64,000 nt of DNA, taken from Eledone cirrhosa. Lineage: Eukaryota. The stretch is from positions 307,582,001-307,646,000 of the forward strand of contig OZ024742.1 in assembly GCA_964016885.1 (NCBI GenBank), given 5' to 3'. A program made the translations under genes and the position numbers. Of the stretch, positions 49,999-64,000 are shown piece after piece (position 1 is the first letter of the stretch; every line of letters starts with the position of its first letter). Below the pieces are notes generated by a model that was not told where the DNA came from, searched no databases, and saw only the letters and a list, made by a program, of their open reading frames with translations.

Positions 49999-50095
49999 TT
50001 ACTATACACAGATGAGCATCTTAGAATAAATATATTTTAACCAGATCAAGAGAACTAGGTTTCGTTATATATGTTAGCAATTACACTAATTCTAA

Positions 50096-50255
50096 GGTGG
50101 TGAATTGGCAGAGCCTTTACAACGTCGGATAGAATGTTTTGTGATATACGGTCCGGCTCTCTGCTCTCTGAGTTCAAATTCCGACGAGGTCAACTTTGTA
50201 TTTCATCCTTTCGAGGTTGATAAAAATGTATCACTCTAGTACTGAGATCGATTCG
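50096..50255 (+). mobile_element. tRNA-derived SINE, same family, 3'-truncated
   Basis: GGTGGTGAATTGGCAGA..GAGTTCAAATTCCGACGAGGTCAACTTTGTATTTCATCCTTTCGAGGTTGATAAA. Confidence 0.85.
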
Positions 50256-50540
50256 TCCTCTATATCTCTTTCTCAGTTCCTTTCTCTCACTTTCTATCCT
50301 TCTCTGGAAAAAATCTGCTGTACTCAGTCCTGGAATTACGGGAACATACCATACCATTACAACAATCCTATATAAGTGATATCGTTTTCTTTTCAACATA
50401 TGTGAAAGATATAAAAACAAAATAAATTAAAAAGAATTATTAAAAAAATAGCTACTGACCTCATAGCCTTAAAAAAATAGTACACAACTGTAGAATAAAT
50501 GCTTTTCCTTGTTTGTCATTTCGTTTTCCTCTCATAAAAT

Positions 50541-50740
50541 GGTTATAGGAGTTAGGTTGCTGGGCTCATGGTTGTTGGTTCATGAGTTCGATTCCTCGAC
50601 TGGATGGCGGATTGTGTCTTTGAGTTCAAATTTACTTTACTTTACATAACTTCAGTTAACTCAACTGGCACAAATTAAATGTACCTGTAATGCAAAATGC
50701 CAGCCCAGTCGCAACTTTTGTCGCACTGGATCTCTCCATG
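50541..50740 (+). mobile_element. diverged tRNA-derived SINE, CORE-like second family
   Basis: B-box GAGTTCGATTCC followed by TTGTGTCTTTGAG, which resembles the CORE motif GTGTCCTTGAGCAAG. Boundaries are approximate. Confidence 0.55.
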
Positions 50741-51755
50741 CCCATCCACTTACAGTTTAATTTCATGAGCAGGTAGTTCCATTGTTTGAATCAGCTGGAG
50801 TACACTGCATCGGAAACAAAAGTGGTTAAACACAAACATTCTTCTCAACATAATATTCTCGCATTTTAATATGTTGACCTAAACTATATACAAGAAGAAA
50901 TTGACGTCAAGCATTTGTATGGTTTAGCTGCTAAACATTTCCTAGTATGAAGGAACCATTTCTCTCAAAGATAAGCACAAATTGAAGCCTTAATACTTTA
51001 CTTTGAGGTTTTAGATAAATTGTTTCCAAACATGTTTACGTCGCCGTACGGTGATAGTCACTGCATTTGCTATGACATTTATCCAGCTCAGTATCAATGA
51101 AATTTACTAATACTTCGTATAAGCTAAATTTATCTTGAGGAGACTTTGGTTCTGAGACGCATGATGTTTACTCATGAATTGTTTTTCGAACAATTTTATT
51201 TCAAGTCAACATATGTAAAATGTATCTACGGCAACTTCCAAAATAACAGACATTGTATAATGTATATAACTTCTAGAAACGTTCAAAATTATGTTAAACT
51301 TATCAAATGAAGAAAATCAGTACAGTGGTATTTGTAGATATCTATTCCTTACAAACCTATATATATATTCATATTTTACATATAGCCTGAATTGCGAGAC
51401 ACTGAGTTCATTAAGTGTCAACTTGAGATCACGACGATTTCAGAACTTTCTCAGTTTCACTCACTCTTGTGGTGCTGTCGGCCGTAAATGTCTTCAGAGA
51501 ACATCTAGGTTCTTTTGGCCCACATCGTTGCATGTTCTCTTCTTTCCTGATATCGGATGGCGATACGATAGCGGAACATTTCCTACAACTTTCGGGGGCA
51601 TTGAAATATTTATTAAAGTATATGTGCTCCAAACAATAATGGAAACAGGCTAGCGGAATTTGCTTGCTGCTCTTTCCTTCACATTCTACAAATGCTCGAC
51701 ACAAGTTATTAAGTGTCGTGTAGGTGTTGCGGTTTATTTTCAGTGTATGAGCAAA

Positions 51756-51912
51756 GGTGCGGTTGCGTGGTTAAGAAGTTCGATTCGAAACTATGTTGTG
51801 CCGGTTTTTATCCCACTAGGTAGTACAATTGGCATGTATCAGCTGACTTAAATTCCAGTCAACCAAGTCTAGCGAGTAATGGTATTGTTGATGGAAACTG
51901 TGCTGAAGCCCA
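51756..51912 (+). mobile_element. diverged tRNA-derived SINE, third family
   Basis: GCGTGGTTAAGAAGTT..CCGGTTTTTATCCCACT head and GATGGAAACTG..GAAGCCC tail, recalled as a common octopus SINE layout. Confidence 0.6.
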
Positions 51913-53173
51913 CCCCTAGTTTAGTACCAATATCTCCCCGCTGAATACATTAAGGACGCCTATTCTGTTACAAGCATTGGGACAAAGTTCCAAGTCTGGA
52001 GATCATTTCATTTCATCCTCCCACCAATCCCAGAAACTCGGAAATGTGTCATAGAACCAGTCTTCTTTCCTCTTCTTGCTTGGCCACAATAAATCTTGGC
52101 ACTCAATGTGCAGAGGTCAGAAGAAAGTAAGTTACTGTCTTCAAAGCTTGAATTCTTCGCTCAGATGGGTGACTACGCCTTTAATCCCTATAGGTCAATA
52201 CGCAATGTCGTTTGATAACCTCATCTTGTATTCTCTTCCTGGCTCTATGTGATATTAGGTGTCCAAGAAATATTGTCCATATACAACTGAAGATTGTTTT
52301 GTAAAATTGTTTTCATAGAATCAATGGGAATGATATACTGAGTCTGAAGTGGATTCTTTTGTGTGTTGGAAGATTGATTTATTAGTTTGTTTTGTTAACA
52401 TCGTCGCTGAGAAAACGGTATATCACTCCAGTTTAATCTTACCTAAATCCCTACCGAAATGATGTCTTAATTGGTGTAACGCCGACCCAGTGCAAGATAT
52501 CCTAAGTCGAAGTTGTTTTGTTCAAAGCTGGAAACAGAATGAGCTTCTGAAATATTTGTTAAGTATCGCGAAATATTTTCATAGAACATAAGATTTGATC
52601 AACAACTATGTATATATAAATACATTCTATAAATTGCTGTCTACCTTTCACTACTTATTTTAGATAGTTTTCCTTGTTTATTTTTGTTTTGGTGAAGCGA
52701 TTAAACATTTTTGTTTTCCACATTCATATTACTACGAATCAATATAATTACAGTTTTCAATAACATGAAATATAATATACAAAATACATACAAAATATCA
52801 AATCGACTCAACATAAAATTATAGGGAAATGGTATATATTTTCCCAGCTTTTCTTTTCCTCAGATGCAACAAAAATAAGTATGTGCAGAATAAATATAGA
52901 ACTATCAGGAAAATTTATCACAAACAATTCAACAATTGTATTGTATATAGAAGACTGAATAAAAACAACTAGCAGTTGTCAAAATGAAATTAATGATTAT
53001 TTAGAAATACATTTATCTAAGAATGTATGGTATTAGCATTTAAAGAAACTTCGTCTGATATATTTTGTTTACTTGAATTGCTGTGAAGGTGTTGTTTAAA
53101 ATAACTGTATCACTTATATATTATAAAGACATAAAGTTGTGGTTCTAGTAGCAGTAAAAATACGTAATATCAG

Positions 53174-53250
53174 ATAACTGTTTCTACTTTAGGCACAAGG
53201 CCAGCAATTACCCAGTGCATTACTGGTACTTTATTTTATCGACCCCGTAA
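53174..53250 (-). mobile_element. 3' fragment of the octopus-type SINE
   Basis: TTCTACTTTAGGCACAAGGCCAGCAATTAC..ACTGGTACTTTATTTTATCGACCCCGTAA, near-identical to 63241-63298. Confidence 0.85.
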
Positions 53251-53300
53251 TTAACATTATTAACACGAGCACTAAAGGGCATAATGTTTCAAAGAAGCGA

Positions 53301-53475
53301 TTTATTATTATTTTTAAAGTCCCAACAAGGCGTGAAGCCACTAAGTGTAAGTGACTATGAAGGAGAAATTAAGACGAAAGGAATGAATTTACTTTAGACT
53401 TGAAAGAGTTCAGGTCATAAGAAGGGGGAAAACAATGAGATGGAAAGAATTCCAGAGTCTGGCAGTTAGTTCCTT
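53301..53475 (-). mobile_element. 3' end of a CR1/L2-group non-LTR retrotransposon, decayed
   Basis: Minus strand reads TARLWNSFHL..VFPPSYDLNSFKSKVN, typical of the ORF2 C-terminus in L2/Crack/Daphne-like LINEs. It is followed by a short UTR (TAGTGGCT..GCCTTG) and a (TAA)n tail. Confidence 0.7.
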
Positions 53476-54214
53476 ATTCGTGGAACCAAATCAGATGAAG
53501 ACTCTGTGAGTTTCGAGTTTCGATTCTCGATTGAAGTCACTTTAGCTGAAATTTACCTGCTAGTAGTAGGAAGGTTGCTGATATAACTTCTTGTTAGCCG
53601 CCGCTATATTTCGAACATTGCTGTTATAACACTATCGGCAAATTTACTAATGACATTGGCACTGATACTGGATTTGGCAGTTCACTTGTCAACAATCTCT
53701 CGTCGATATCTCGCTTCTTAACTGCTATCATACCCAAAGGTTCATAAACAAATTTCAAACAGAATATCAAGGATTTTATGGATGTTAATTCTAAACTATC
53801 AATGGCGTGGGGGATTTGAATACCTATCCTCACTCCGGGTTACCCTCCAAAGCATCAGTCATCAATTAGCGATCCAACATATCAAAGTACTCCGAACATG
53901 CAATGCAAGTCCGTGGAGAATGATTTAAAATAATAACAACTGCACAAACAAGAATTAGAGTACTGCGTGTGATAGAGAACACGAAATACCTAAAAGAACA
54001 TACCAGACCTCACAAAACTAAAGGCATTCTAACGATTAACTCTTCCCAGGTTTACACGATACAGTACCAATTTAACATGAAATTACGCAGTAGACTTTCT
54101 ATACAACAAGTATCCTGCACAATAATCGCTCAATACAATAATATAAAGCATACTCAACAGAAAATGTATTTGCGAACTCGTTACTCTTTCTGGAGTATTT
54201 GGAATGGCGTCATA

Positions 54215-54340
54215 ATATTTTCCCAGTTGAATGGACTGGGACAACCTGGAATAAAGTTCATGCTCAAGGATACTATGTGCCGATGGGGATAGATCTCTTG
54301 ATCATAAAACCTTCAGCCGAATCTACTAAACATATCCTTC
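54215..54340 (-). mobile_element. diverged CORE-like SINE remnant
   Basis: AAGTTCATGCTCAAGGATAC..GGGGATAGATCTC resembles the reverse complement of B-box plus CORE (AAGTGTCTTGCTCAAGGACAC..GGGATCGAACTC). Confidence 0.5.
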
Positions 54341-54367
54341 ATTATGTTTGATTACAGCCAATTTCGC

Positions 54368-54370
<3 letters not shown>

Positions 54371-54443
<73 letters not shown>
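54371..54443. repeat. compound (CT)n(AT)n microsatellite
   Basis: Seen directly. Confidence 0.98.
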
Positions 54444-54446
<3 letters not shown>

Positions 54447-55022
54447 AATTAATATATCTACCGACATATGTATACAGATACATATCTACGCTAGCAGATA
54501 TAATTGTTCTGCATTCCCCTGCATAGAACTACAACGTTACTAAGACAAAACATATATATCTGCTAGCGTAGGTATGCATCTGTATACATATGTCGGTAGA
54601 TATATTAATTCTTTATATTCTTCTCCAAATTATTTGTTGTGTAAAATTTGCCAAATTACTACTGTGACTGATAGTAGTGGCTAGGCTCTGTCTTAATATC
54701 ACCCCACTTCAAGCTGGTTAACCTCAGTGTCACGTGATTAATTCTTTTAAATTTGCCACTTGACCAAGGAGGCAGCGAATTTTTCAGTGCTTAGAATCTA
54801 GCCCCGCTCGATTTTTTCGCTTTTTTCCATCCACTGAATTATTGTTATATAGGCTTCCAGTGTCCCCGCATTGCCTGGTGGCTTAGCTGAGAATAGACTC
54901 CCTGATGACGTAAGGTTTCTCTACAGGTATTACATAACTGTATTTATCCCCTTACAGAAACTAATTAGTTGGAGTGAAATTTTAGTAAGTAAGTCAATTT
55001 TCATAACTTTCTTATTTACGTC

Positions 55023-55026
<4 letters not shown>
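54441..55026 (+). mobile_element. E1: non-coding or 5'-truncated PLE derivative with inverted 5' end and a hammerhead, flanked by (TA)n
   Basis: 62-bp inverted arms 54441-54502 / 54555-54616 (2 mismatches, 52-nt loop), hammerhead at 54897-54975, (TA)n on both sides. Same layout as the coding PLE at 59198-62440. Confidence 0.75.
54897..54975 (+). ncRNA. type I hammerhead ribozyme motif with extended stem II
   Basis: ACTCC-CTGATGA-[C GTAAGG..CCTTAC A, 48 nt]-GAAA-CTAATTAG (palindrome)-TT|GGAGT. Stem I is ACTCC/GGAGT; predicted GUU cleavage after 54970. Confidence 0.8.
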
Positions 55027-55063
<37 letters not shown>

Positions 55064-55064
<1 letters not shown>

Positions 55065-55287
55065 CAAAGAAATTGTGGTAAGGAACCAGATGGACCATAA
55101 CGGACCAGAGTACTCAATACTTAGGGTAGTAGAGTGGGAAATAGGAAAAAGTATGACCTGGACGGCAGAGCTCAAGCCGTTTCGACGGCTATTTCTGGAC
55201 TACAGTGGGCGAAATTGGCTGTAATTAGTCCAGAAATAGCCGTCGAAGCGGCTTGAGCTCTGCCGTCGGGGTCATACTTTTTCCTAT
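55064..55287 (-). mobile_element. E2: short fold-back element between (TA)n tracts, carrying the 3' half of a hammerhead
   Basis: 62-bp inverted arms 55141-55202 / 55226-55287 with a 23-nt loop. Minus strand has C-GAAA-CGGC-TTGAGCTCT-GCCG-TC (stem III plus GUC) but no CUGANGA. Confidence 0.7.
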
Positions 55288-55360
55288 ATATATATATATA
55301 TATATATATGGAGACGTATGTGAGGAAGAGAGAACAAGTTAGAAAAATATGCAGTTAAAG

Positions 55361-55506
55361 AATCAATCCCAGTACTGGTTTGTTACTTTTTTATTGACCT
55401 CGTAAACGTAAAAAGCAAAGTTGACTGCAGCGGGGTTTGAACACAAATATTCGAGCCATACGAAGGATTCTATCTGACGTTTTAACTTCTCTACCAATTA
55501 GCAACC
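55361..55506 (-). mobile_element. diverged copy of the octopus-type SINE
   Basis: CCCAGTACTGGT..TTTTATTGACCTCG..GCAAAGTTGAC..GGGGTTTGAAC aligns to the 63239-63422 copy. Confidence 0.7.
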
Positions 55507-55518
55507 AAACTCTACAGA

Positions 55519-55703
55519 ACTACACAAAACTTGTCCATTACACAATCATCATAAATAATATAACACTACACAGAATTTATCCACTACCCAATCACAACTC
55601 GGTAATATAACACTGCACAGAAGTTATCCATTACACAATCTTCACTAAATTATATGACACTAAAGAGAACTCATCCATTACACAATCACCAGTAAATATA
55701 ACA
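55519..55703. repeat. degenerate ~46-47-bp minisatellite, about 4 copies
   Basis: Unit ACTACACAGAAnTTATCCATTACACAATCnnCAnTAAATAATATAAC starting near 55519, 55565, 55612 and 55659. Confidence 0.8.
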
Positions 55704-56420
55704 ATGCTTACAGATTACATAATCTTGGCAATCATTACCACATAAAATAACAGCACAATTTCCCACATAAAAAAGACACTCAATATTACAACATATTCCA
55801 CATACAATAACAAACACATAAAACATATATTCTGGACAAGCTGCGCTTAGTATATATATATAATACAAGGCACAGCACATACAAATCTACAAAATAACAT
55901 CCTGACAGTGTTGGTGTTGTGGTGTTGGGTCCCACCGTTTCCCTTGTGTACTAGAGTCTATTTGCTTGAATATAGAACTGCACTACAAAATATACAACAT
56001 TTTAGAGTGAGTAATTTTAAGCAAGGGTAAAATATATGATATGTAATTGCAAACTAGATTATTTTGAAAGAAATGGAATTAAAGTATGGAAATTGTTTAC
56101 ATGATGGTTCTAATTATGAGGCAATGATCCTAATAAAACTTAATTAATTAATGAGCAATACAAATACAGTATTTAACAAGTATAAGATAAAATATATGTG
56201 TTTGTGTGTGTGTGTGTTGATTTGCTCAATATTGGGAGTAAAGCCTCACTGCTTAAGGGCTAGTCTTTTTCATGATCCCAGCGGATAGAATGGTGAGGGA
56301 AATGCGCTGGGACAGCTACTCCGGCTTGCGAGGTATCCAACTCCACCTCAATAGCTGTATGTAAGGATGTTGGGTGTGCATCCTAAAAATCCGTTTATAT
56401 CAGCACGCTACATTCCATAC

Positions 56421-56439
56421 AGAGAGAGGGAGAGACGGC

Positions 56440-56471
<32 letters not shown>

Positions 56472-56516
56472 CAGACACAGAGAGACAAACACAAACACGC
56501 ACATACACAATTTAAC

Positions 56517-56574
<58 letters not shown>
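56421..56574. repeat. (GA)n, (CA)n and (TA)n microsatellite run
   Basis: Seen directly. Confidence 0.95.
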
Positions 56575-56577
<3 letters not shown>

Positions 56578-56939
56578 GAAAGGTATAGAAAGTATTGTAG
56601 TAAGAAGCCAACAGTATTCCAAAAAGAATTAGGATATAGATTTATCCAACAGAATTTAGTGAAATCCAGGGAGAAATCAATAGAGCCTTACCTCATGATA
56701 AAATAAAGTTTAAAATACTTATCCCTCAATTTGGGACAACTACAAATGCTCTGTATATATATATATGGGAAGAGATATATTTGATATATCTCATATGAAA
56801 TCATACAGCCAATTTTCCACACAATACAATTAGTTAGCACCCCGAACGTTTAATTAGGAATATACTCAGGTATTTCCTAATGTTTGTTGAGTGAGTTGGA
56901 ATTTGGCCGGAGTATCGCTATTAGCTTTCTCCGATTATG

Positions 56940-57399
<460 letters not shown>

Positions 57400-57531
57400 C
57401 AATGAGTTATGTAATTTGTTGGTTATTTAACAAAATTAGTTTATAACAGATTAGAAGCACTCTACAATATTCCTCTGGAGTATAATATCAAAAGTATTAA
57501 TAAATGGAAACTATCTTTATAAAATCATATT

Positions 57532-57593
57532 TATTTTATTATATATATTTCAAGGGTACCAACACTTTTGGTACGATCTCATCAGATAAAATA
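57532..57593 (-). ncRNA. minimal type I hammerhead ribozyme, intact core
   Basis: Minus strand: TATTTTAT-CTGATGA-GATCGTACCAAAAGTGTTGGTACCCTT-GAAA-TATATA-TA|ATAAAATA. Confidence 0.85.
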
Positions 57594-57723
57594 TAAAAGT
57601 TGTTTTATAGATAGTGACATATTCAAAACAAGAACTTATCGTGTTAAGTTCTGTTTGAATAATCAAACAGAACTAAGATAAGTTCTTGTTTTGAATATGT
57701 CACTATCTATAAAACAACTTTTA

Positions 57724-57785
57724 TATTTTATCTGATGAGAACGTACCAAAAATGTTGGTACCCTTGAAATATATATAATAAGATA
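57724..57785 (+). ncRNA. minimal type I hammerhead ribozyme, intact core
   Basis: TATTTTAT-CTGATGA-GAACGTACCAAAAATGTTGGTACCCTT-GAAA-TATATA-TA|ATAAGATA. Predicted cut after 57777. Confidence 0.85.
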
Positions 57786-57892
57786 AATATGGTTTTATAA
57801 AGATAGTTTCCATTTATTAATACTTTTGATATAGTCGCATATATGTTATAGAATGCCGTTAGCTTCTTGCTAAAACAATCTCTATACGTCTC

Positions 57893-57937
<45 letters not shown>

Positions 57938-58109
57938 ATGAATAAACAAAGAAACAGTTCCTTATATTAAAAAATTCATCATTTTACGATCGTTTCTAGG
58001 ATATATATGTTAGTGTTGGTATGCATATCCTATAGATCTGTGTAAAATGTTTACAAACTATCAGAGGGAATATACATACCTACACATATATATGCTGTCT
58101 TCTACATTA

Positions 58110-58147
<38 letters not shown>

Positions 58148-58275
58148 GAAGGAGGTGAGTTTTATTGATTGTAGCACAATAAAGCAATGCAAATATCGGA
58201 TAAGTAGCACTCTACAGTTTGTAGGACTGGAGTATAAATAATATAAGATCAAAAGATGGTTAAAAGAGTTCCAAG

Positions 58276-58346
58276 TATTTTATTGTGCGCATTTCAAAAA
58301 TAAATATCATCATGGGATGATATCTGCGTTCTCATCAGATAAAATA
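58276..58346 (-). ncRNA. hammerhead ribozyme motif, cleavage-site U mutated to C (probably inactive)
   Basis: Minus strand: TATTTTAT-CTGATGA-stem II-GAAA-TGCGCA-CA|ATAAAATA. The partner arm has TA at this site. Confidence 0.75.
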
Positions 58347-58457
58347 GGGATACATGATATGAAGCTTAAAAAACACTTGTGAATAGTGAAGTTATAAATC
58401 AACATATGTTGATTTAAAACTTCACTAGTGTTTTTTAAGCTTCATATCATGTATCCC

Positions 58458-58528
58458 TATTTTATCTGATGAGAACGCAGATATCATCCCATGATGATAT
58501 CTGTTTTTGAAATGCGCATAATAAAATA
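58458..58528 (+). ncRNA. minimal type I hammerhead ribozyme, intact core
   Basis: TATTTTAT-CTGATGA-GAACGCAGATATCATC CCAT GATGATATCTGTTTTT-GAAA-TGCGCA (palindrome)-TA|ATAAAATA. Predicted cut after 58520. Confidence 0.9.
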
Positions 58529-58550
58529 CTTGGAACTCTTTAAACCATCT

Positions 58551-58636
<86 letters not shown>

Positions 58637-58665
58637 AATGGAAACTATATTTATAAAAGCATATT

Positions 58666-58727
58666 TATTCTATTATATATATTTCAAGGGCACCAAAAAC
58701 TTTGGTACGCTTTCATCAGATAAAATA
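58666..58727 (-). ncRNA. minimal type I hammerhead ribozyme, intact core
   Basis: Minus strand: TATTTTAT-CTGATGA-AAGCGTACCAAAGTTTTTGGTGCCCTT-GAAA-TATATA-TA|ATAGAATA. Confidence 0.85.
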
Positions 58728-58845
58728 CAAAATGCGTTTTATAAATTTTGACATAGCCAAGGAACATTATCAGTTGAATTTTCCTTGGATAGTCACTGAT
58801 AAGGTATGTTCCTAGGCTATGTCAAAATTTATAAAACACACTTTG

Positions 58846-58907
58846 TATTTTATCTGATGAAAGCGTACCAAAGTTTTTGGTACCCTTGACATATATATAA
58901 TAGAATA
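58846..58907 (+). ncRNA. hammerhead ribozyme motif with GAAA>GACA core mutation (probably inactive)
   Basis: TATTTTAT-CTGATGA-AAGCGTACCAAAGTTTTTGGTACCCTT-GACA-TATATA-TA|ATAGAATA. Confidence 0.75.
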
Positions 58908-59040
58908 AATATGGTTTGATAATATAGTTTCCATTTATTTAATATCATTGAATATTTACTACAGAAAGCTGTCGAGTGCTCTGAATCAGTTATAAACATT
59001 TATATTTGTTGAATTTCCAACAAATTAAATATCCCTTCTG

Positions 59041-59042
<2 letters not shown>

Positions 59043-59139
<97 letters not shown>

Positions 59140-59155
59140 GTATATATATATATAT

Positions 59156-59198
<43 letters not shown>
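59043..59198. repeat. (TA)n tract abutting the PLE 3' end
   Basis: Seen directly. Confidence 0.98.
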
Positions 59199-59200
<2 letters not shown>

Positions 59201-59375
59201 AATTAGTAAATTTGTATTCCAATGTTACTAAGTAGTTGCATTGGATGGAGTCAACCGACGTCAGAGATTGCTCAACGTATAATAAAGTGTGTTTTAAAAT
59301 CCGGAGACAATATGGAGAAGAAGTTTATGAAATGGAAATGCGGGTATACAGAATTTATTAGGTAATAATTGTTTC
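59198..59375 (-). repeat. 3' pseudo-LTR (direct repeat of 62216-62393)
   Basis: 178 bp, 3 mismatches counted by eye, offset 3018. Confidence 0.95.
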
Positions 59376-59476
59376 TATAGTGTATGGGTTAACAATACAT
59401 CGCTATTTGAATAATATAAAAATATTATCATAAACCGAAGGTACACTGTAAGCAAACACACCATGTCGTCAGACCT
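59360..59476 (-). ncRNA. type I hammerhead ribozyme motif with a 90-nt stem II region
   Basis: Minus strand: AGGT-CTGACGA-C ATGGTGTGT...ATACACTAT A-GAAA-CAATT(A)-TT|ACCT. The 5' pLTR copy retains the palindromic CAATTG stem III. Confidence 0.7.
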
Positions 59477-59886
59477 TTGTATTGGAATGATATGAAAATA
59501 TTTTATACACTAGATAAAATATAAAGAAGGAGGTAGGAAGAGAAGGGGAAGAGGGAAGTGAGTAAGGTGGAGGGAGTCTTAGGATTTAAGACTGTCAGAC
59601 TAGTAGAGATTGTAAGGAGAGAATGTTTTGGCAGCAGTTAGCCTAATGAGGCGCGTTAGGGTTGGCGGGGGAAGTAAATTCTTCTAGTGGTGTTGTTCGG
59701 ACAAAATTTAGTTAAAGGAGTCAAAGTGGTAGAGTGTCACAGACAAGTTATTGGGGCTATTATAGTAGCAGGTTATTTCTAAAGGGGTCCGGAAAACAGT
59801 GTTTAGTACTATTATTATAGAAAGCCATATCTTGTGTATAAACATATAAAACAGAAATTTGCAAACGGTAGTGTAAAAAGGTAACA

Positions 59887-62170
59887 TTATATGCATTTAA
59901 AAAAAGAAAAAGTCGTTTTCAAACGATAGTTACAGTATAGAGAACGTTCAATTTTGCTGTTCAAAAGTTTGTTTACCGACGTTAAAATGCAGTATATCTC
60001 CAAATTGCATAACTTGCAGAATCGATGATTTTGCTTATATGCAGGCGCAGCTGCAATAATTTGCCAATCAAGGGAGAATGCTTGATTGTTCCTCCGGAGC
60101 TGCCAGGCTTTATCGGCGAGGGTTGTTACGGAGCGCATTTTCTCGTGCCTGATCGAAGATCGATGTTGGTATAGGCGAGCCTTGAAAGAAGTTGCGGTAC
60201 ATCCGACGTAATACCATTTGTTGGTTCCGGAATTTATTGTACATCGGTAGACAATATTGCGTGCTAGGCACTGGTTATTCAGTGGGCACGTACCTGGTTT
60301 GGTGCAGTTACAATTATTTTTATGTTTTGCAGTAGAATCCTGGATAGTTTGGTGGGGTTGTAGTTACGTGTTAGTGCGTTGTATGTTGCTATGCTGGTGC
60401 GCGGAGTCATTAGGGATGTACTTATTCAGTATTGCTGAGTTGAGTTTTTTAATTAGTTGTTCTATGTTAGGTGCAGTGGAGTATGAGAGTCTAATGGTGC
60501 GCGAGTTAAAGATTTTATAGTATTTATGTGAAGTTGTAAAGTGTTTATTGATTAGTGTATAGAATTGTGAGATAATCTTAGTGCTAATAGAAGAATTGTA
60601 CACGGGGTTATACCATATGTACTCTCTACTTCTGACTCTATTTGCTGGTTTGAACCTATTAGTATGCCTATTGATGTGTGTGTGTGGTGCAATACTAGTT
60701 CGACTTAGATGTGTTTTATTCATAGTACTTATGTGGTTATCGTCTAGATATTCTATTTTCTCGCAGTAACCAGCTTTTCTAAGTGCGTCATTATAATATT
60801 CAGCATGCTCGTAGAAGGTCTGCAAATTAGACGATAGTCGGGAGATCCTTATGGATATATTTTTAGGGATAGATTTAATAATGGAATGAGGGTGGTTCGA
60901 TTTTACATTAACGTACTTGAGATTTTCATTAAGTTTGTGAAATGGCTCTATATTACCGTTATTAAGGTTGAAGGTGACATCCAAGAAGTTGACCACCTTA
61001 AGATTGTGTTCGAAGGTAATATTAAGCCCTAGTTCTAAGAAAAGTTTCCTAATGTTTTTACGTCGCCTTTCTAGGTTTTGTTTGTTCATATTCTTGACTA
61101 ATAGAAGTGTATCGTCGCGGTATATTCCGCCGTGGAGGTCCGTAAATTCGCTCTGGAGTCTATGGGCTATATAGATCCCAACCAGATCCGTGACCTCCGC
61201 CGAAACATTAGAACCCATCGTAATGTCGAATTCCGAGGGTCTATCTCTGCGGACCCAATAACTATTTTCAAAGTGCACTACTGTGCGTCTAGCTTCAAGT
61301 ATAATATTAATTTCCTCGTTTGTGAGGTCCGAGTTAGTCTTAGCGAAAGAGAGGGCCTTATGCAGGGTTTCGGGTGAAATAGAGGAATAGTATTCATCTA
61401 TATCGAATTGAATAAAAGAAGATTTGTTTTTGTCCCTAATGTTATTGAACCATCTTATTGCCTGATGAGTATTACCCCATAATTTAATATCTACCTTAGC
61501 CTTAACTTGGGGGATAATACGATCTAATATGTACTTACTAATTCTACCTATATCGTACTTTGAAGGACATATTAATCTAATTTTAGGGTTAGTATCGAAG
61601 TTATCCTTATGGTCCTTCAGATTAAAAGTCGGTGTAGCTGGAGATAGGGGTTACCGTTCTGTCGTCAATTTTCAGTTTCTTAACAATATCACATGCTGCG
61701 TTATTAATGTTGGTTAGTGTAGTTGCGTTTGTTTTTTTGTACTTCCTATGTAATTCCTTACGTATAAAATTATTATATGTTTCCACATCCAGGGTGTATA
61801 GATTCGATGTTTTGTCTGCCTTTATGATAATTCCTTTGGTATTCCTTAGGTTGTCGAGTAGAGTTTTAATATCTCGTTGCAGTTCGTTTTTCCTTCCGTT
61901 TGTAAATTTGATTCCGGTTATCATTTTCATTAAGTCCTGTTCGAAAGAATCCAAAAGAGGGTTAGAGGGTGGGTTTTTGTAGGATTTGAAACCAAACTTA
62001 TCGTTGTTGGTGTCGGAAGTTTGTGTAATCCTTTTCCTATCGAAGTGGAAGGCCCTCCATCTAATCCGCCGAATAAATTCGTTGGTCCTTTGTATCATAC
62101 CAAGAATGTATTCTTTTTTACCCTGAATGGGTATGTTTTTTAAGGACATACCACAATGATGTTTTTCCAT
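59887..62170 (-). pseudogene. PLE polyprotein, reverse transcriptase plus GIY-YIG endonuclease, ~760 aa, with a +1 frameshift near 61647-61650 and an in-frame TAA at 60364-60366
   Basis: Joins ORFs 61622-62170, 60364-61278 and 59887-60138. Motifs: IIIKADKT, LKDHK..NP..RLI, FIQFDIDEYYSSI, MGSNVSAEVTDL, IYRDD, VNFLDVTF, CNCTKPGTCPLNNQC, IVY..YVG..FKARLYQH, CKLCNLE, LLN. Span is 2284 = 3x761+1. Confidence 0.93.
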
Positions 62171-62215
62171 TTCAGAGACGTAGGTTGATAGGTTGCTCGA
62201 CTGTAAAGGAGTGTG

Positions 62216-62393
62216 AAGAATTAGTAAATTTGTATTCCAATGTTACTAAGTAGTTGCATTGGATGGCGTCAACCGACGTCAGAGATTGCTCAACGTATAA
62301 TAAAGTGTGTTTTAAAATCCGGAGAAAATATGGAGAAGAAGTTTATGAAATGGAAATGCGGGTATACAGAATTTATTAGGTAACAATTGTTTC
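62216..62393 (-). repeat. 5' pseudo-LTR, partial, begins at the hammerhead GAAA
   Basis: Direct repeat of 59198-59375. It ends 45 bp upstream of the ATG at 62170. Confidence 0.95.
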
Positions 62394-62435
62394 CTAATAA
62401 ATTCTGTATACCCGCATTTCCATTTCATAAACTTC

Positions 62436-62440
<5 letters not shown>
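62333..62440. repeat. terminal fold-back palindrome of the PLE
   Basis: 62394-62440 is the exact reverse complement of 62333-62379. The centre is AACAATTGTT, and (CT)n(AT)n follows to 62479. Confidence 0.95.
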
Positions 62441-62479
<39 letters not shown>

Positions 62480-63238
62480 GACAACGTCATCAAGGAAAAC
62501 AACACGGAGCAACAATGATTGAATATTCGTTTGACACTTGATGTAGTTGGAAAATTATCATAACGTTTTGAATGTCATTTCGTCGTCGGGAGATAGAATA
62601 AAAGGGACCAGGAAGGGCGTTTGAGAAAGAGCAGAAACAAAAGGGAGATATACGAGAGTCGACAGACAAAGAAAACTGGAGTACGTAGATAGGAAAAAAG
62701 GTGTTATCGTCAGTCAGCATTTTTGACAATATACTGTGATTCCTTTCATGAGTAATAGCGTCGTTCGAAATTGACCGTTACTTATTTGATTAAGCTAACA
62801 ACGATAACATGCAAAGTCCGCCTTGGTGGAAAAATCTATGATCGGTAGTGCATAGTTTCAATCTATAGATTTCTCTTTTATGGACCTAACTCGCTTTCGC
62901 TGCTCCAGTCATGTTAGTATGATTCAGACTCTGTAAGGGTATGGACCTTCATGCCAATTGCAAAGTATGGTGATATCTATATGGATTTTTACGTTTTGAT
63001 TCATGATGTTAAAAGCGAGAAATTTCTGTCAGGTCCGGGTTTTCGGGTTGGTGTGACATTTTCTTAGGAACTGTTCAGTACGAGAATCACAACTCGTTAC
63101 TTCTTGTCATGTTACTAGTTATCTTAGTCGTCGGAACTTTCTTTAAGAGCAAGCCACATATCGAAATGATTGGAAAAAAGAACAAAGACAAAAATAGGAA
63201 AAGATCTTTGAACAATAACAACAACAATGATAATAATG

Positions 63239-63422
63239 ATTTCTACTATAGGCACAAGGCCAGCAATTACTGGTACTTTATTTTATCGACCCCGTAAGGA
63301 TGAAAGGCAAAATTAACCTCGGCGGGATTTGAATCTAGATCATAAAGGGCCGTAACTCTATGCTGCAAAGCATGGCGTCAGACCCTCTATCGATACTGCC
63401 AATCCACCGCCAATCCACCGCC
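63239..63422 (-). mobile_element. tRNA-derived octopus-type SINE with internal deletion and 11-bp head duplication
   Basis: TTCTACTATAGGCACAAGGCC..GGTACTTTATTTTATCGACCCCGTAAGGATGAAAGGCAAAATTAACCTCGGCGGGATTTGAA..CTGCCAATCCACCGCC(AATCCACCGCC). An (AAT/AAC)n tail lies at ~63210-63240. Confidence 0.88.
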
Positions 63423-64000
63423 AAACAACAATGATAATAATGAGAATAATAATAATAAACTAAATCTTCTAGACATATCGTAATAGGTATTTTGAATGCA
63501 AAGTCACTCCTTACTCTTTGCATCTGTTATATGATTATATTACGAACGCATTTTCTTTTTATTGTTGATATAAACTATGCAGATTTAGGTAAAAGCAAAT
63601 AACGAATCATATTTACCGGCAATTGCAAGGCAATAATGGTGTGTAATAGCGAAGACTTTACAAGAACAAGGTAAATATATAGGAATCAATGATAGAGTGG
63701 GCAAATATTCACAGCTGATTTTTGCTTTAAATCTGTGTTTTGTTTTACTTCTTGAAACAGTCCAACTCAATCACCTGAAAACAAGTATTTGAAATGGATT
63801 ACTGGAAACCAAATAACTATTTAGATAGGTTATAATTTTTTCCCAATTGTGTAACGTTAAACTCAATGCTGGGTGTGCTGAAAGTATGAAGCGGTCCAAT
63901 AATCTTTGGTTAAATTTTCAATTAGCTGTGTTGTTGCCCTCGAGTTGAACGTTGTCTAGACAGAGCAACATTATCAAATCACATTGTGTCACTTCAATAT

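What the first reader, a model, noticed from the sequence alone, without database searches (positions are those of the whole stretch)
57398..59043. Three palindromic twin-hammerhead cassettes inserted in (TA)n next to a coding Penelope-like element
Seen: E3, E4 and E5 are 410-500-bp non-coding units, each bounded by (TA)n and dominated by a 145-170-bp-arm palindrome. Each arm carries a complete type I hammerhead layout (TATTTTAT-CUGAUGA-stem II-GAAA-6-nt palindrome-UA|AUAAAAUA), giving one ribozyme on each strand, facing outward. Stem II and stem III sequences differ between cassettes (GTACCA/TGGTAC vs CAGATATCATC/GATGATATCTG; TATATA vs TGCGCA) while pairing is kept, which is covariation. Established: PLE pLTRs carry minimal hammerheads with palindromic stem III that are thought to work as dimers, and PLE insertions often have inverted 5' ends. 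Inference: these are either ORF-less pLTR-only insertions with fold-back ends, or a non-autonomous family moved by a Naiad-type RT/endonuclease whose unit is a self-cleaving hairpin RNA.
Basis: partly seen in the sequence, partly recalled or inferred. Interest (0 to 1): 0.85.

Follow-up and report, generated by a model that had tools for sequence, protein, structure and literature searches.

The report
Penelope-like retrotransposon leftovers with twin hammerheads
These three palindromes are gene-less leftovers of common Penelope-like jumping genes, with thousands of similar copies in this genome, and their ends suggest they were likely made by copying the front of an uncut RNA twice, once onto each DNA strand.

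Summary
The palindromes and hammerhead layouts are real: 4 of 6 arms have an intact core, and one arm each of E4 and E5 has a core mutation. They are not a separate self-cleaving hairpin family and not Naiad-related. Each arm is the pseudo-LTR of a coding Hydra-type Penelope-like element. Other copies of all three families run upstream into a GIY-YIG/RT ORF, and short arms intermix with read-through arms on trees.

The genome holds 40,810 exact hammerhead-pattern matches and 8,790 outward twin cores. Junctions mostly differ between copies, yet arms end inward at one base (an Inr-like TC|A). A non-genomic G often precedes that base (40 of 52 in E5's family), and ends do not pile up at the ribozyme cut site.

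Best reading (inferred): two reverse transcriptions are primed about 83 nt apart on opposite target strands in (TA)n, run off the 5' end of uncut RNA, and join head to head. This bears on a published open question about how these inversions form. The scan noted a similar by-product in another genome. No cleavage or RNA evidence was obtained.

The parts
57398..57661 (-). E3 long arm: pLTR from near +1 through the hammerhead to the tail end, abutting (TA)n
   Evidence: 92% to the 3' end of read-through copy L161
57532..57593 (-). E3 hammerhead, intact core, predicted cut 57540|57539
57663..57832 (+). E3 short (tail-less) arm; outer end about 86 nt short of the tail end
57724..57785 (+). E3 hammerhead, intact core, predicted cut 57777|57778
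57833..57896 (.). separate 64-bp repeat abutting E3, not part of the cassette
   Evidence: 98% to L128, 86% to L006, 80% to L373
58148..58408 (-). E4 long arm with tail; its hammerhead (58346-58276) has C in place of U16.1 at 58285
58403..58560 (+). E4 short arm starting at +1; intact hammerhead 58458-58528, predicted cut 58520|58521
58633..58794 (-). E5 short arm starting at +1 with a non-genomic G at -1 (58794); intact hammerhead 58727-58666, predicted cut 58674|58673
   Evidence: (L280)
58795..59042 (+). E5 long arm with tail, starting near +20; its hammerhead (58846-58907) has GACA for GAAA at 58890
59198..62432 (-). neighbouring frameshifted coding Hydra-type element of another family (direct repeats 59198-59375/62216-62393, 5' palindrome 62341-62432); not the parent of E3-E5

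Best explanation
E3-E5 are ORF-less insertions of three coding Hydra-type Penelope-like families, each made of two copies of the element's hammerhead-bearing pseudo-LTR joined head to head, likely made by two separate reverse transcriptions that ran off the 5' end of an uncut transcript.

Shown: the arms belong to coding families; they have two fixed outer ends 81-86 nt apart, both abutting (TA)n; they share one preferred inner end at an Inr-like TC|A 70-80 nt before the hammerhead core, often preceded by a non-genomic G; junctions are variable; and the tail end lies about 85 nt before the ORF start in a full-length relative.

Inferred: the RT-endonuclease nicks both strands of (TA)n, primes at two internal sites near the RNA's 5' end and copies back to the cap, giving about 260-nt and 175-nt cDNAs that are joined by short homology. 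Priming in the downstream pLTR instead gives the longer copies that reach the 3' UTR or ORF. The twin ribozymes are passengers of this geometry, and the cassettes are likely dead ends.
For: Parent ORFs: GIY-YIG hits lie 1.1-1.3 kb upstream of E3, E4 and E5 arms in the same orientation. L169 has RT and endonuclease between two outward E3-type hammerheads. L121, L126, L127 and L132 carry 738-821-aa ORFs of E4's sister family.

Inner ends: in copies chosen by tail only (29 per family, window copy left out), inner ends pile at +1 and inverted-arm outer ends at 81-86 nt. Genome-wide spacer counts are 1,759 / 5,706 / 1,103 / 222 for 54-99 / 100-145 / 146-191 / 192-237 nt. In E5's family, ends at +2, +1 and -1 number 12, 52 and 2.

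Extra G: G precedes +1 in 40 of 52 E5-family arms, against 0 of 12 at +2. The same holds for 25 of 55 in E3's family and 41 of the first 100 listed in E4's, also beside unrelated flanks.

No cut-site pile: 5,377 E4-type arms start at +1, against about 65 truncations at the cut site and about 68 and 41 at two neighbouring positions.

Two events: in 20 of 61 inverted copies the tail-less arm reaches 20 nt or more further 5' than the tailed arm, so neither arm is a simple copy of the other.

No separate clade: trees intermix short and read-through arms.

Literature: PMC11167929 shows both-strand nicking and extension, two internal start sites, and uncut RNA as the main substrate in vitro.
Against: No RNA data: no RNA 5' end, cap or cleavage was observed. 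The extra G could be a terminal-transferase addition rather than a cap copy, and it is weaker in E3's family (p=0.04 against one third). Some G's could come from the partner arm. Later deletions at palindrome centres could create arm asymmetry. Arms in one cassette are more alike than arms between cassettes in E3 and E4 (5.0 vs 8.4%, 2.4 vs 8.8%; not in E5), which also fits fold-back copying or later conversion. A hairpin lies just downstream of +1 in E3 and E5. The +1 and cut-site counts used different filters, and the +1 count includes point mutants. Trees rest on about 160 nt; E4 and E5 show somewhat fewer label changes than shuffles (39 vs 44.3; 19 vs 24.9). No intact ORF was found for E3's or E5's own family.
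Confidence: 0.72

Rival explanations
1. Same parent elements, but the palindrome arises by self-priming (fold-back) of one strand, as proposed for rotifer Penelope elements, with later centre deletions explaining the asymmetry.
For: Arms within a cassette share rare variants (30 and 24 sites in E3 and E4). Some junctions are perfect palindromes, and one E4 junction form recurs in about 9 of 31 cassettes. PMC3846280 (passages read) favours self-priming on an antisense template.
Against: In 20 of 61 inverted copies each arm holds sequence the other lacks, often with the tail-less arm ending exactly at +1. The extra G at -1 points to run-off on a sense template. Tail-less 3' ends also occur on read-through copies.
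Confidence: 0.12
2. The cassettes are a self-propagating non-autonomous family whose unit is the palindromic RNA, moved in trans.
For: Very high copy number. Clustered apex. Full palindromes have no own ORF nearby (in one search only L055 of L031-L060 had an ORF hit, to another family). Non-autonomous PLE derivatives are known (PMC7229834; 10.64898/2026.07.22.740005; PMC8557442).
Against: Junctions are mostly unique and arm differences rarely recur. Short arms form no clade. Short arms lack the sequence upstream of +1. A full-cassette RNA is a -243.8 kcal/mol rod with both ribozymes paired away. The partner is not Naiad-type.
Confidence: 0.08
3. The fixed inner end is an RT stall at an RNA structure in a long transcript, not the RNA's 5' end.
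For: E3 and E5 have a hairpin right after +1 (sequence). Many copies read through +1.
Against: The peak is one base wide (12/52/2), sits on TC|A in three families of different sequence, and carries a non-genomic G. E4 shows no such obvious hairpin by eye.
Confidence: 0.08

Closest known systems
Hydra-clade Penelope-like elements (Craig et al. 2021, PMC8557442)
   Same: RT with C-terminal GIY-YIG, DKT, an RW motif, CxCX5C linker, (TA)n insertion, hammerhead in the pLTR, inverted 5' copy, and a tail at one end.
   Different: The tail is 81-86 nt rather than 30-40. Here ORF-less twin-pLTR products are very numerous (8,790 exact twin cores). Clade placement by tree was not tested.
Poseidon element of Anolis in vitro (Frangieh et al. 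2024, PMC11167929)
   Same: Two internal RT start sites bracket the tail, both strands are extended, targets are AT-rich, and uncut RNA is used.
   Different: There the start sites lie inside the ORF; here they lie about 85 nt or more before it. Run-off to the RNA 5' end and head-to-head joining were not described in the parts I read (parts 1-2 of 4).
Inverted and solo pLTRs of Adineta vaga Penelope (PMC3846280)
   Same: Head-to-head pLTRs with junction palindromes, an optional tail, and an Inr-like TCACT in the pLTR.
   Different: That paper proposes self-priming on an antisense template and leaves the question open; the end pattern here favours two primings on a sense template.
Animal non-LTR retrozymes (PMC7229834; 10.64898/2026.07.22.740005)
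   Same: Non-coding, about 300-nt, type I hammerhead sequences related to PLE pLTRs, in high copy number.
   Different: Retrozymes are head-to-tail tandem repeats with circular RNAs. These are head-to-head pairs that still intermix with coding copies.

Membership tests
Hydra-clade PLE | single ORF with RT followed by C-terminal GIY-YIG | tested here: met
   L121, L126, L127, L132, L169 motif order; Pfam found no family for the L121 protein and only a weak GIY-YIG hit for the window element
Hydra-clade PLE | DKG changed to DKT; RWK-like motif | tested here: met
   SDKT in L121, L126, L127, L132, L133, L169, L238 (SDKA in L186); RRLRW followed by T, I or R rather than K
Hydra-clade PLE | CxCX5C linker | tested here: met
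   present in E3-linked (L168, L169), E4-linked (L173, L179) and E5-linked (L246, L249, L255) loci
Hydra-clade PLE | insertion in (TA)n, hammerhead in pLTR, inverted copy and one-sided tail | tested here: met
Hydra-clade PLE | CCHH motif absent; RT falls in the Hydra clade on a tree | not tested
   no reference Hydra proteins were fetched
Naiad PLE | N-terminal endonuclease, DKA motif, no canonical hammerhead | tested here: not met
   definition from PMC8557442
Non-LTR retrozyme | head-to-tail tandem units, each with a hammerhead | tested here: not met
   units are head-to-head; direct hammerhead pairs examined were 3-4 kb apart and flanked ORFs
Non-LTR retrozyme | circular RNA intermediate | not testable with these tools
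   no RNA run listed
Type I hammerhead ribozyme | CUGANGA, GAAA and UH core with stems I-III | tested here: met
   4 of 6 arms; 40,810 pattern matches, 0 for the reversed control; no Rfam hit
Type I hammerhead ribozyme | self-cleavage | not testable with these tools
   needs an in vitro assay; genomic ends show no excess at the cut site in E4's family

The most novel reading that the evidence does not exclude
This genome holds thousands of reaction snapshots showing that the head-to-head structure of Penelope-like elements comes from twin priming on capped, sense, ribozyme-uncut RNA. Each arm's inner end then marks the transcription start to the base, and the hammerhead plays no part in defining the copied template in vivo.
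Probability: 0.55. Interest if true: 0.65.

Novelty: new member of a known kind. Interest (0 to 1): 0.42.

Why it matters
The objects are ordinary by-products of a known retrotransposon clade, but their ends are informative. How Penelope-like elements make inverted structures, and what their hammerheads do, are left open in PMC3846280 and PMC8557442. Here a single-base inner end with an extra G, two fixed outer ends, and no excess at the ribozyme cut site give genomic support for a twin-priming, run-off model that matches the one in vitro study. They also name the RNA (about 260 nt) and a family with long ORFs (L121, L132) for a direct test.

Tried and rejected
- Rfam scan of 50000-64000: only hairpin (mostly miRNA) models below their gathering scores, no hammerhead.
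- Searches with whole E3 or E4 favour full palindromes, so apex statistics were redone on tail-only, pattern and position samples.
- Neighbouring coding element as parent: rejected, its pLTR has no useful match to the arms (best 16 nt).
- Naiad partner: rejected.
- Cleaved RNA as template: no excess at the cut site.
- Single-arm folds: 3 of 6 arms have z below -2, and the hammerhead core itself is not predicted; uninformative on activity.
- No RNA holder listed; no evidence either way.
- Three contig runs of unknown kind from one sample were laid. Ten of 15 listed joints end at 58404-58406, near E4's +1, but the runs share at most 0.30 of the words and pool many copies, so this is only a side hint.
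- Pfam found no RT family for the parent ORF.
- Literature searches listed no paper describing cap-end run-off or twin priming for these elements. The library lacks most subscription papers, and supplements were not read.

Full report
Observation. The window shows three ORF-less units between (TA)n runs. A descriptor scan finds type I hammerhead layouts with an 8-bp stem I and a palindromic stem III on both arms of E3, the right arm of E4 and the left arm of E5; 100 resampled windows give none. The other two arms each carry one core change (58285 and 58890). Rfam reports no hammerhead. Each unit has a long arm with a tail and a short arm without it. E3 ends at 57832 and is followed by a separate 64-bp repeat.

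Abundance. The window lies in a 3.0-Gb genome (G000). E3 and E4 have many dispersed relatives (3,997 and 888 first-look candidates, 40 scored each). A tight hammerhead pattern matches 40,810 times, its reversed control 0 times. Outward-facing twin cores number 1,759, 5,706, 1,103 and 222 for spacers of 54-99, 100-145, 146-191 and 192-237 nt, pooled over many families.

Parents. I fetched 20 regions around hammerhead pairs from the first 100 listed matches. Four of them (L121, L126, L127, L132) hold 738-821-aa RT-GIY-YIG ORFs of E4's sister family between or beside hammerheads. E4's own tail-selected copies hit that protein at 75-85% about 1.1 kb upstream. E3-type arms continue upstream into a shared 3' UTR in most of 17 pattern-selected loci. 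GIY-YIG hits lie upstream in L158-L161, L164 and L168, and RT plus endonuclease lie between outward hammerheads in L169. E5-type arms have same-strand GIY-YIG hits upstream in 10 of 30 loci. The motifs DKT, RRLRW and CxCX5C, with the endonuclease last, fit Hydra as defined in PMC8557442 (section 11 and passages read) and exclude Naiad. The coding element next door is also Hydra-type, but its pLTR is unrelated to E3-E5.

Ends. To avoid selecting for palindromes I took copies by the tail alone (30 of 40 scored per family, window copy then left out). Of 87 copies, 61 have an adjacent inverted arm (17, 17 and 27). Its outer end is 81-86 nt from the tail end in most. Inner ends cluster at one position per family, the A of TC|A, 256-269 nt from the tail end and 70-80 nt before C3. 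Within -3 to +10 fall 24 of 87 tailed arms and 28 of 61 inverted arms; the rest spread from -1043 to +164. In 20 of 61 the tail-less arm reaches at least 20 nt further inward than the tailed arm (L181, tailed on both sides, and L221, with an internal deletion, not counted; three E5 copies with distant inverted pieces counted as negatives).

In E5's family, exact patterns give 12 ends at +2, 52 at +1 and 2 at -1. The base before +1 is G in 40 of 52, but in 0 of 12 before +2. It is G in 25 of 55 for E3's family and 41 of the first 100 listed for E4's. Contexts show this G next to (TA)n or unrelated DNA as well as partner arms. The genomic base there is C. That an RT adds C opposite a cap, or at a run-off end, is recalled knowledge and was not confirmed by my searches. 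PMC3846280 (passages) notes an Inr-like TCACT in rotifer pLTRs, the sequence seen at +1 in E3 and E5. PMC2377424 (passages) places the Drosophila Penelope start site and internal promoter in this region. In L127 the tail end is followed by about 85 nt and then the ATG, so priming is internal.

Ribozyme. In E4's family 5,377 arms start at +1 with a non-C before it. Patterns at the predicted cut site and at -3 and +6 give 115, 97 and 42 matches, of which 17, 21 and 29 of 30 inspected are true truncations. There is no excess at the cut site, so the copied RNA was mostly uncut, as in PMC11167929 (parts 1-2 of 4 read). A whole-cassette transcript folds into one rod. PMC4209133 (passages) reports that such ribozymes cleave weakly and as dimers. 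Activity here is untested.

Independent family? Junctions are distinct in 25 of 27, 23 of 31 and 8 of 8 full palindromes. Arm-to-arm differences recur at most 7 times at one site. Arms within a cassette are closer than between cassettes for E3 and E4 but not E5, so both arms usually come from one source. On trees of about 160 nt, short and read-through arms intermix: 16, 39 and 19 label changes against shuffled means of 16.8, 44.3 and 24.9, where a separate clade would give 1. Retrozymes (PMC7229834, passages; 10.64898/2026.07.22.740005, part 1 of 5 and passages) are head-to-tail and differ.

Mechanism. Shown: parentage, target, two outer ends, one inner end, extra G, variable junctions. Inferred: the protein nicks both strands of (TA)n, primes at two sites about 83 nt apart near the RNA 5' end, runs to that end, and the two cDNAs are joined head to head. 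Priming in the downstream pLTR yields the longer copies. Fold-back with later deletion, a stall at a hairpin, and self-propagating cassettes remain possible at lower odds.

Verdict. A new member of a known kind: insertion by-products of Hydra-type elements. An earlier scan note on another genome reached a similar by-product verdict; it is unchecked and is not support. The interest lies in the mechanistic read-out, for which my eight completed searches listed no prior description; the library is incomplete and supplements were not read.

Noticed in passing
window 59198-62432 (-): This Hydra-type coding element has no canonical hammerhead core in its pLTR (CTGACGT with no clear GAAA; the one other copy seen, L351, reads CCGACGT), although PMC8557442 calls hammerheads universal in Hydra. 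It has the same 5' palindrome layout (62341-62432).
   Followed up: partly
window 54444-54620, 55064-55284, 56575-56940, 57928-58115: Other (TA)n-bounded repeats, the first two palindromic, without the hammerhead core. They hit 5, 85, 19 and 22 of the fetched loci (overlapping loci included). They may be the same kind of product from other families.
   Followed up: partly
window 57833-57896: A separate 64-bp repeat abuts E3's short arm and ends at (TA)n; it is also found in L128, L006 and L373, possibly the tail of another family.
   Followed up: partly
L161 and L249, 40-60 nt upstream of +1: E3 and E5 parents share a CCTCATT(A/T)(G/A)CATA motif resembling an octamer site (resemblance recalled), a candidate upstream promoter element absent from solo cassettes and not seen in E4's family.
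   Followed up: no
L121:1600-1640: A run of about 24 A lies between an inverted 3' UTR copy and the sequence just after the tail end, immediately before an 821-aa open frame; it may record a template jump.
   Followed up: no
L067: An E3-type tail is attached to a different family's hammerhead and preceded by a third, inverted tail: a possible chimera between families.
   Followed up: no
window 63233-63400 and 53174-53250: A dispersed SINE-like repeat, also inserted into 3' UTRs of the parent elements (L151, L156); its resemblance to cephalopod SINEs is recalled and untested.
   Followed up: no
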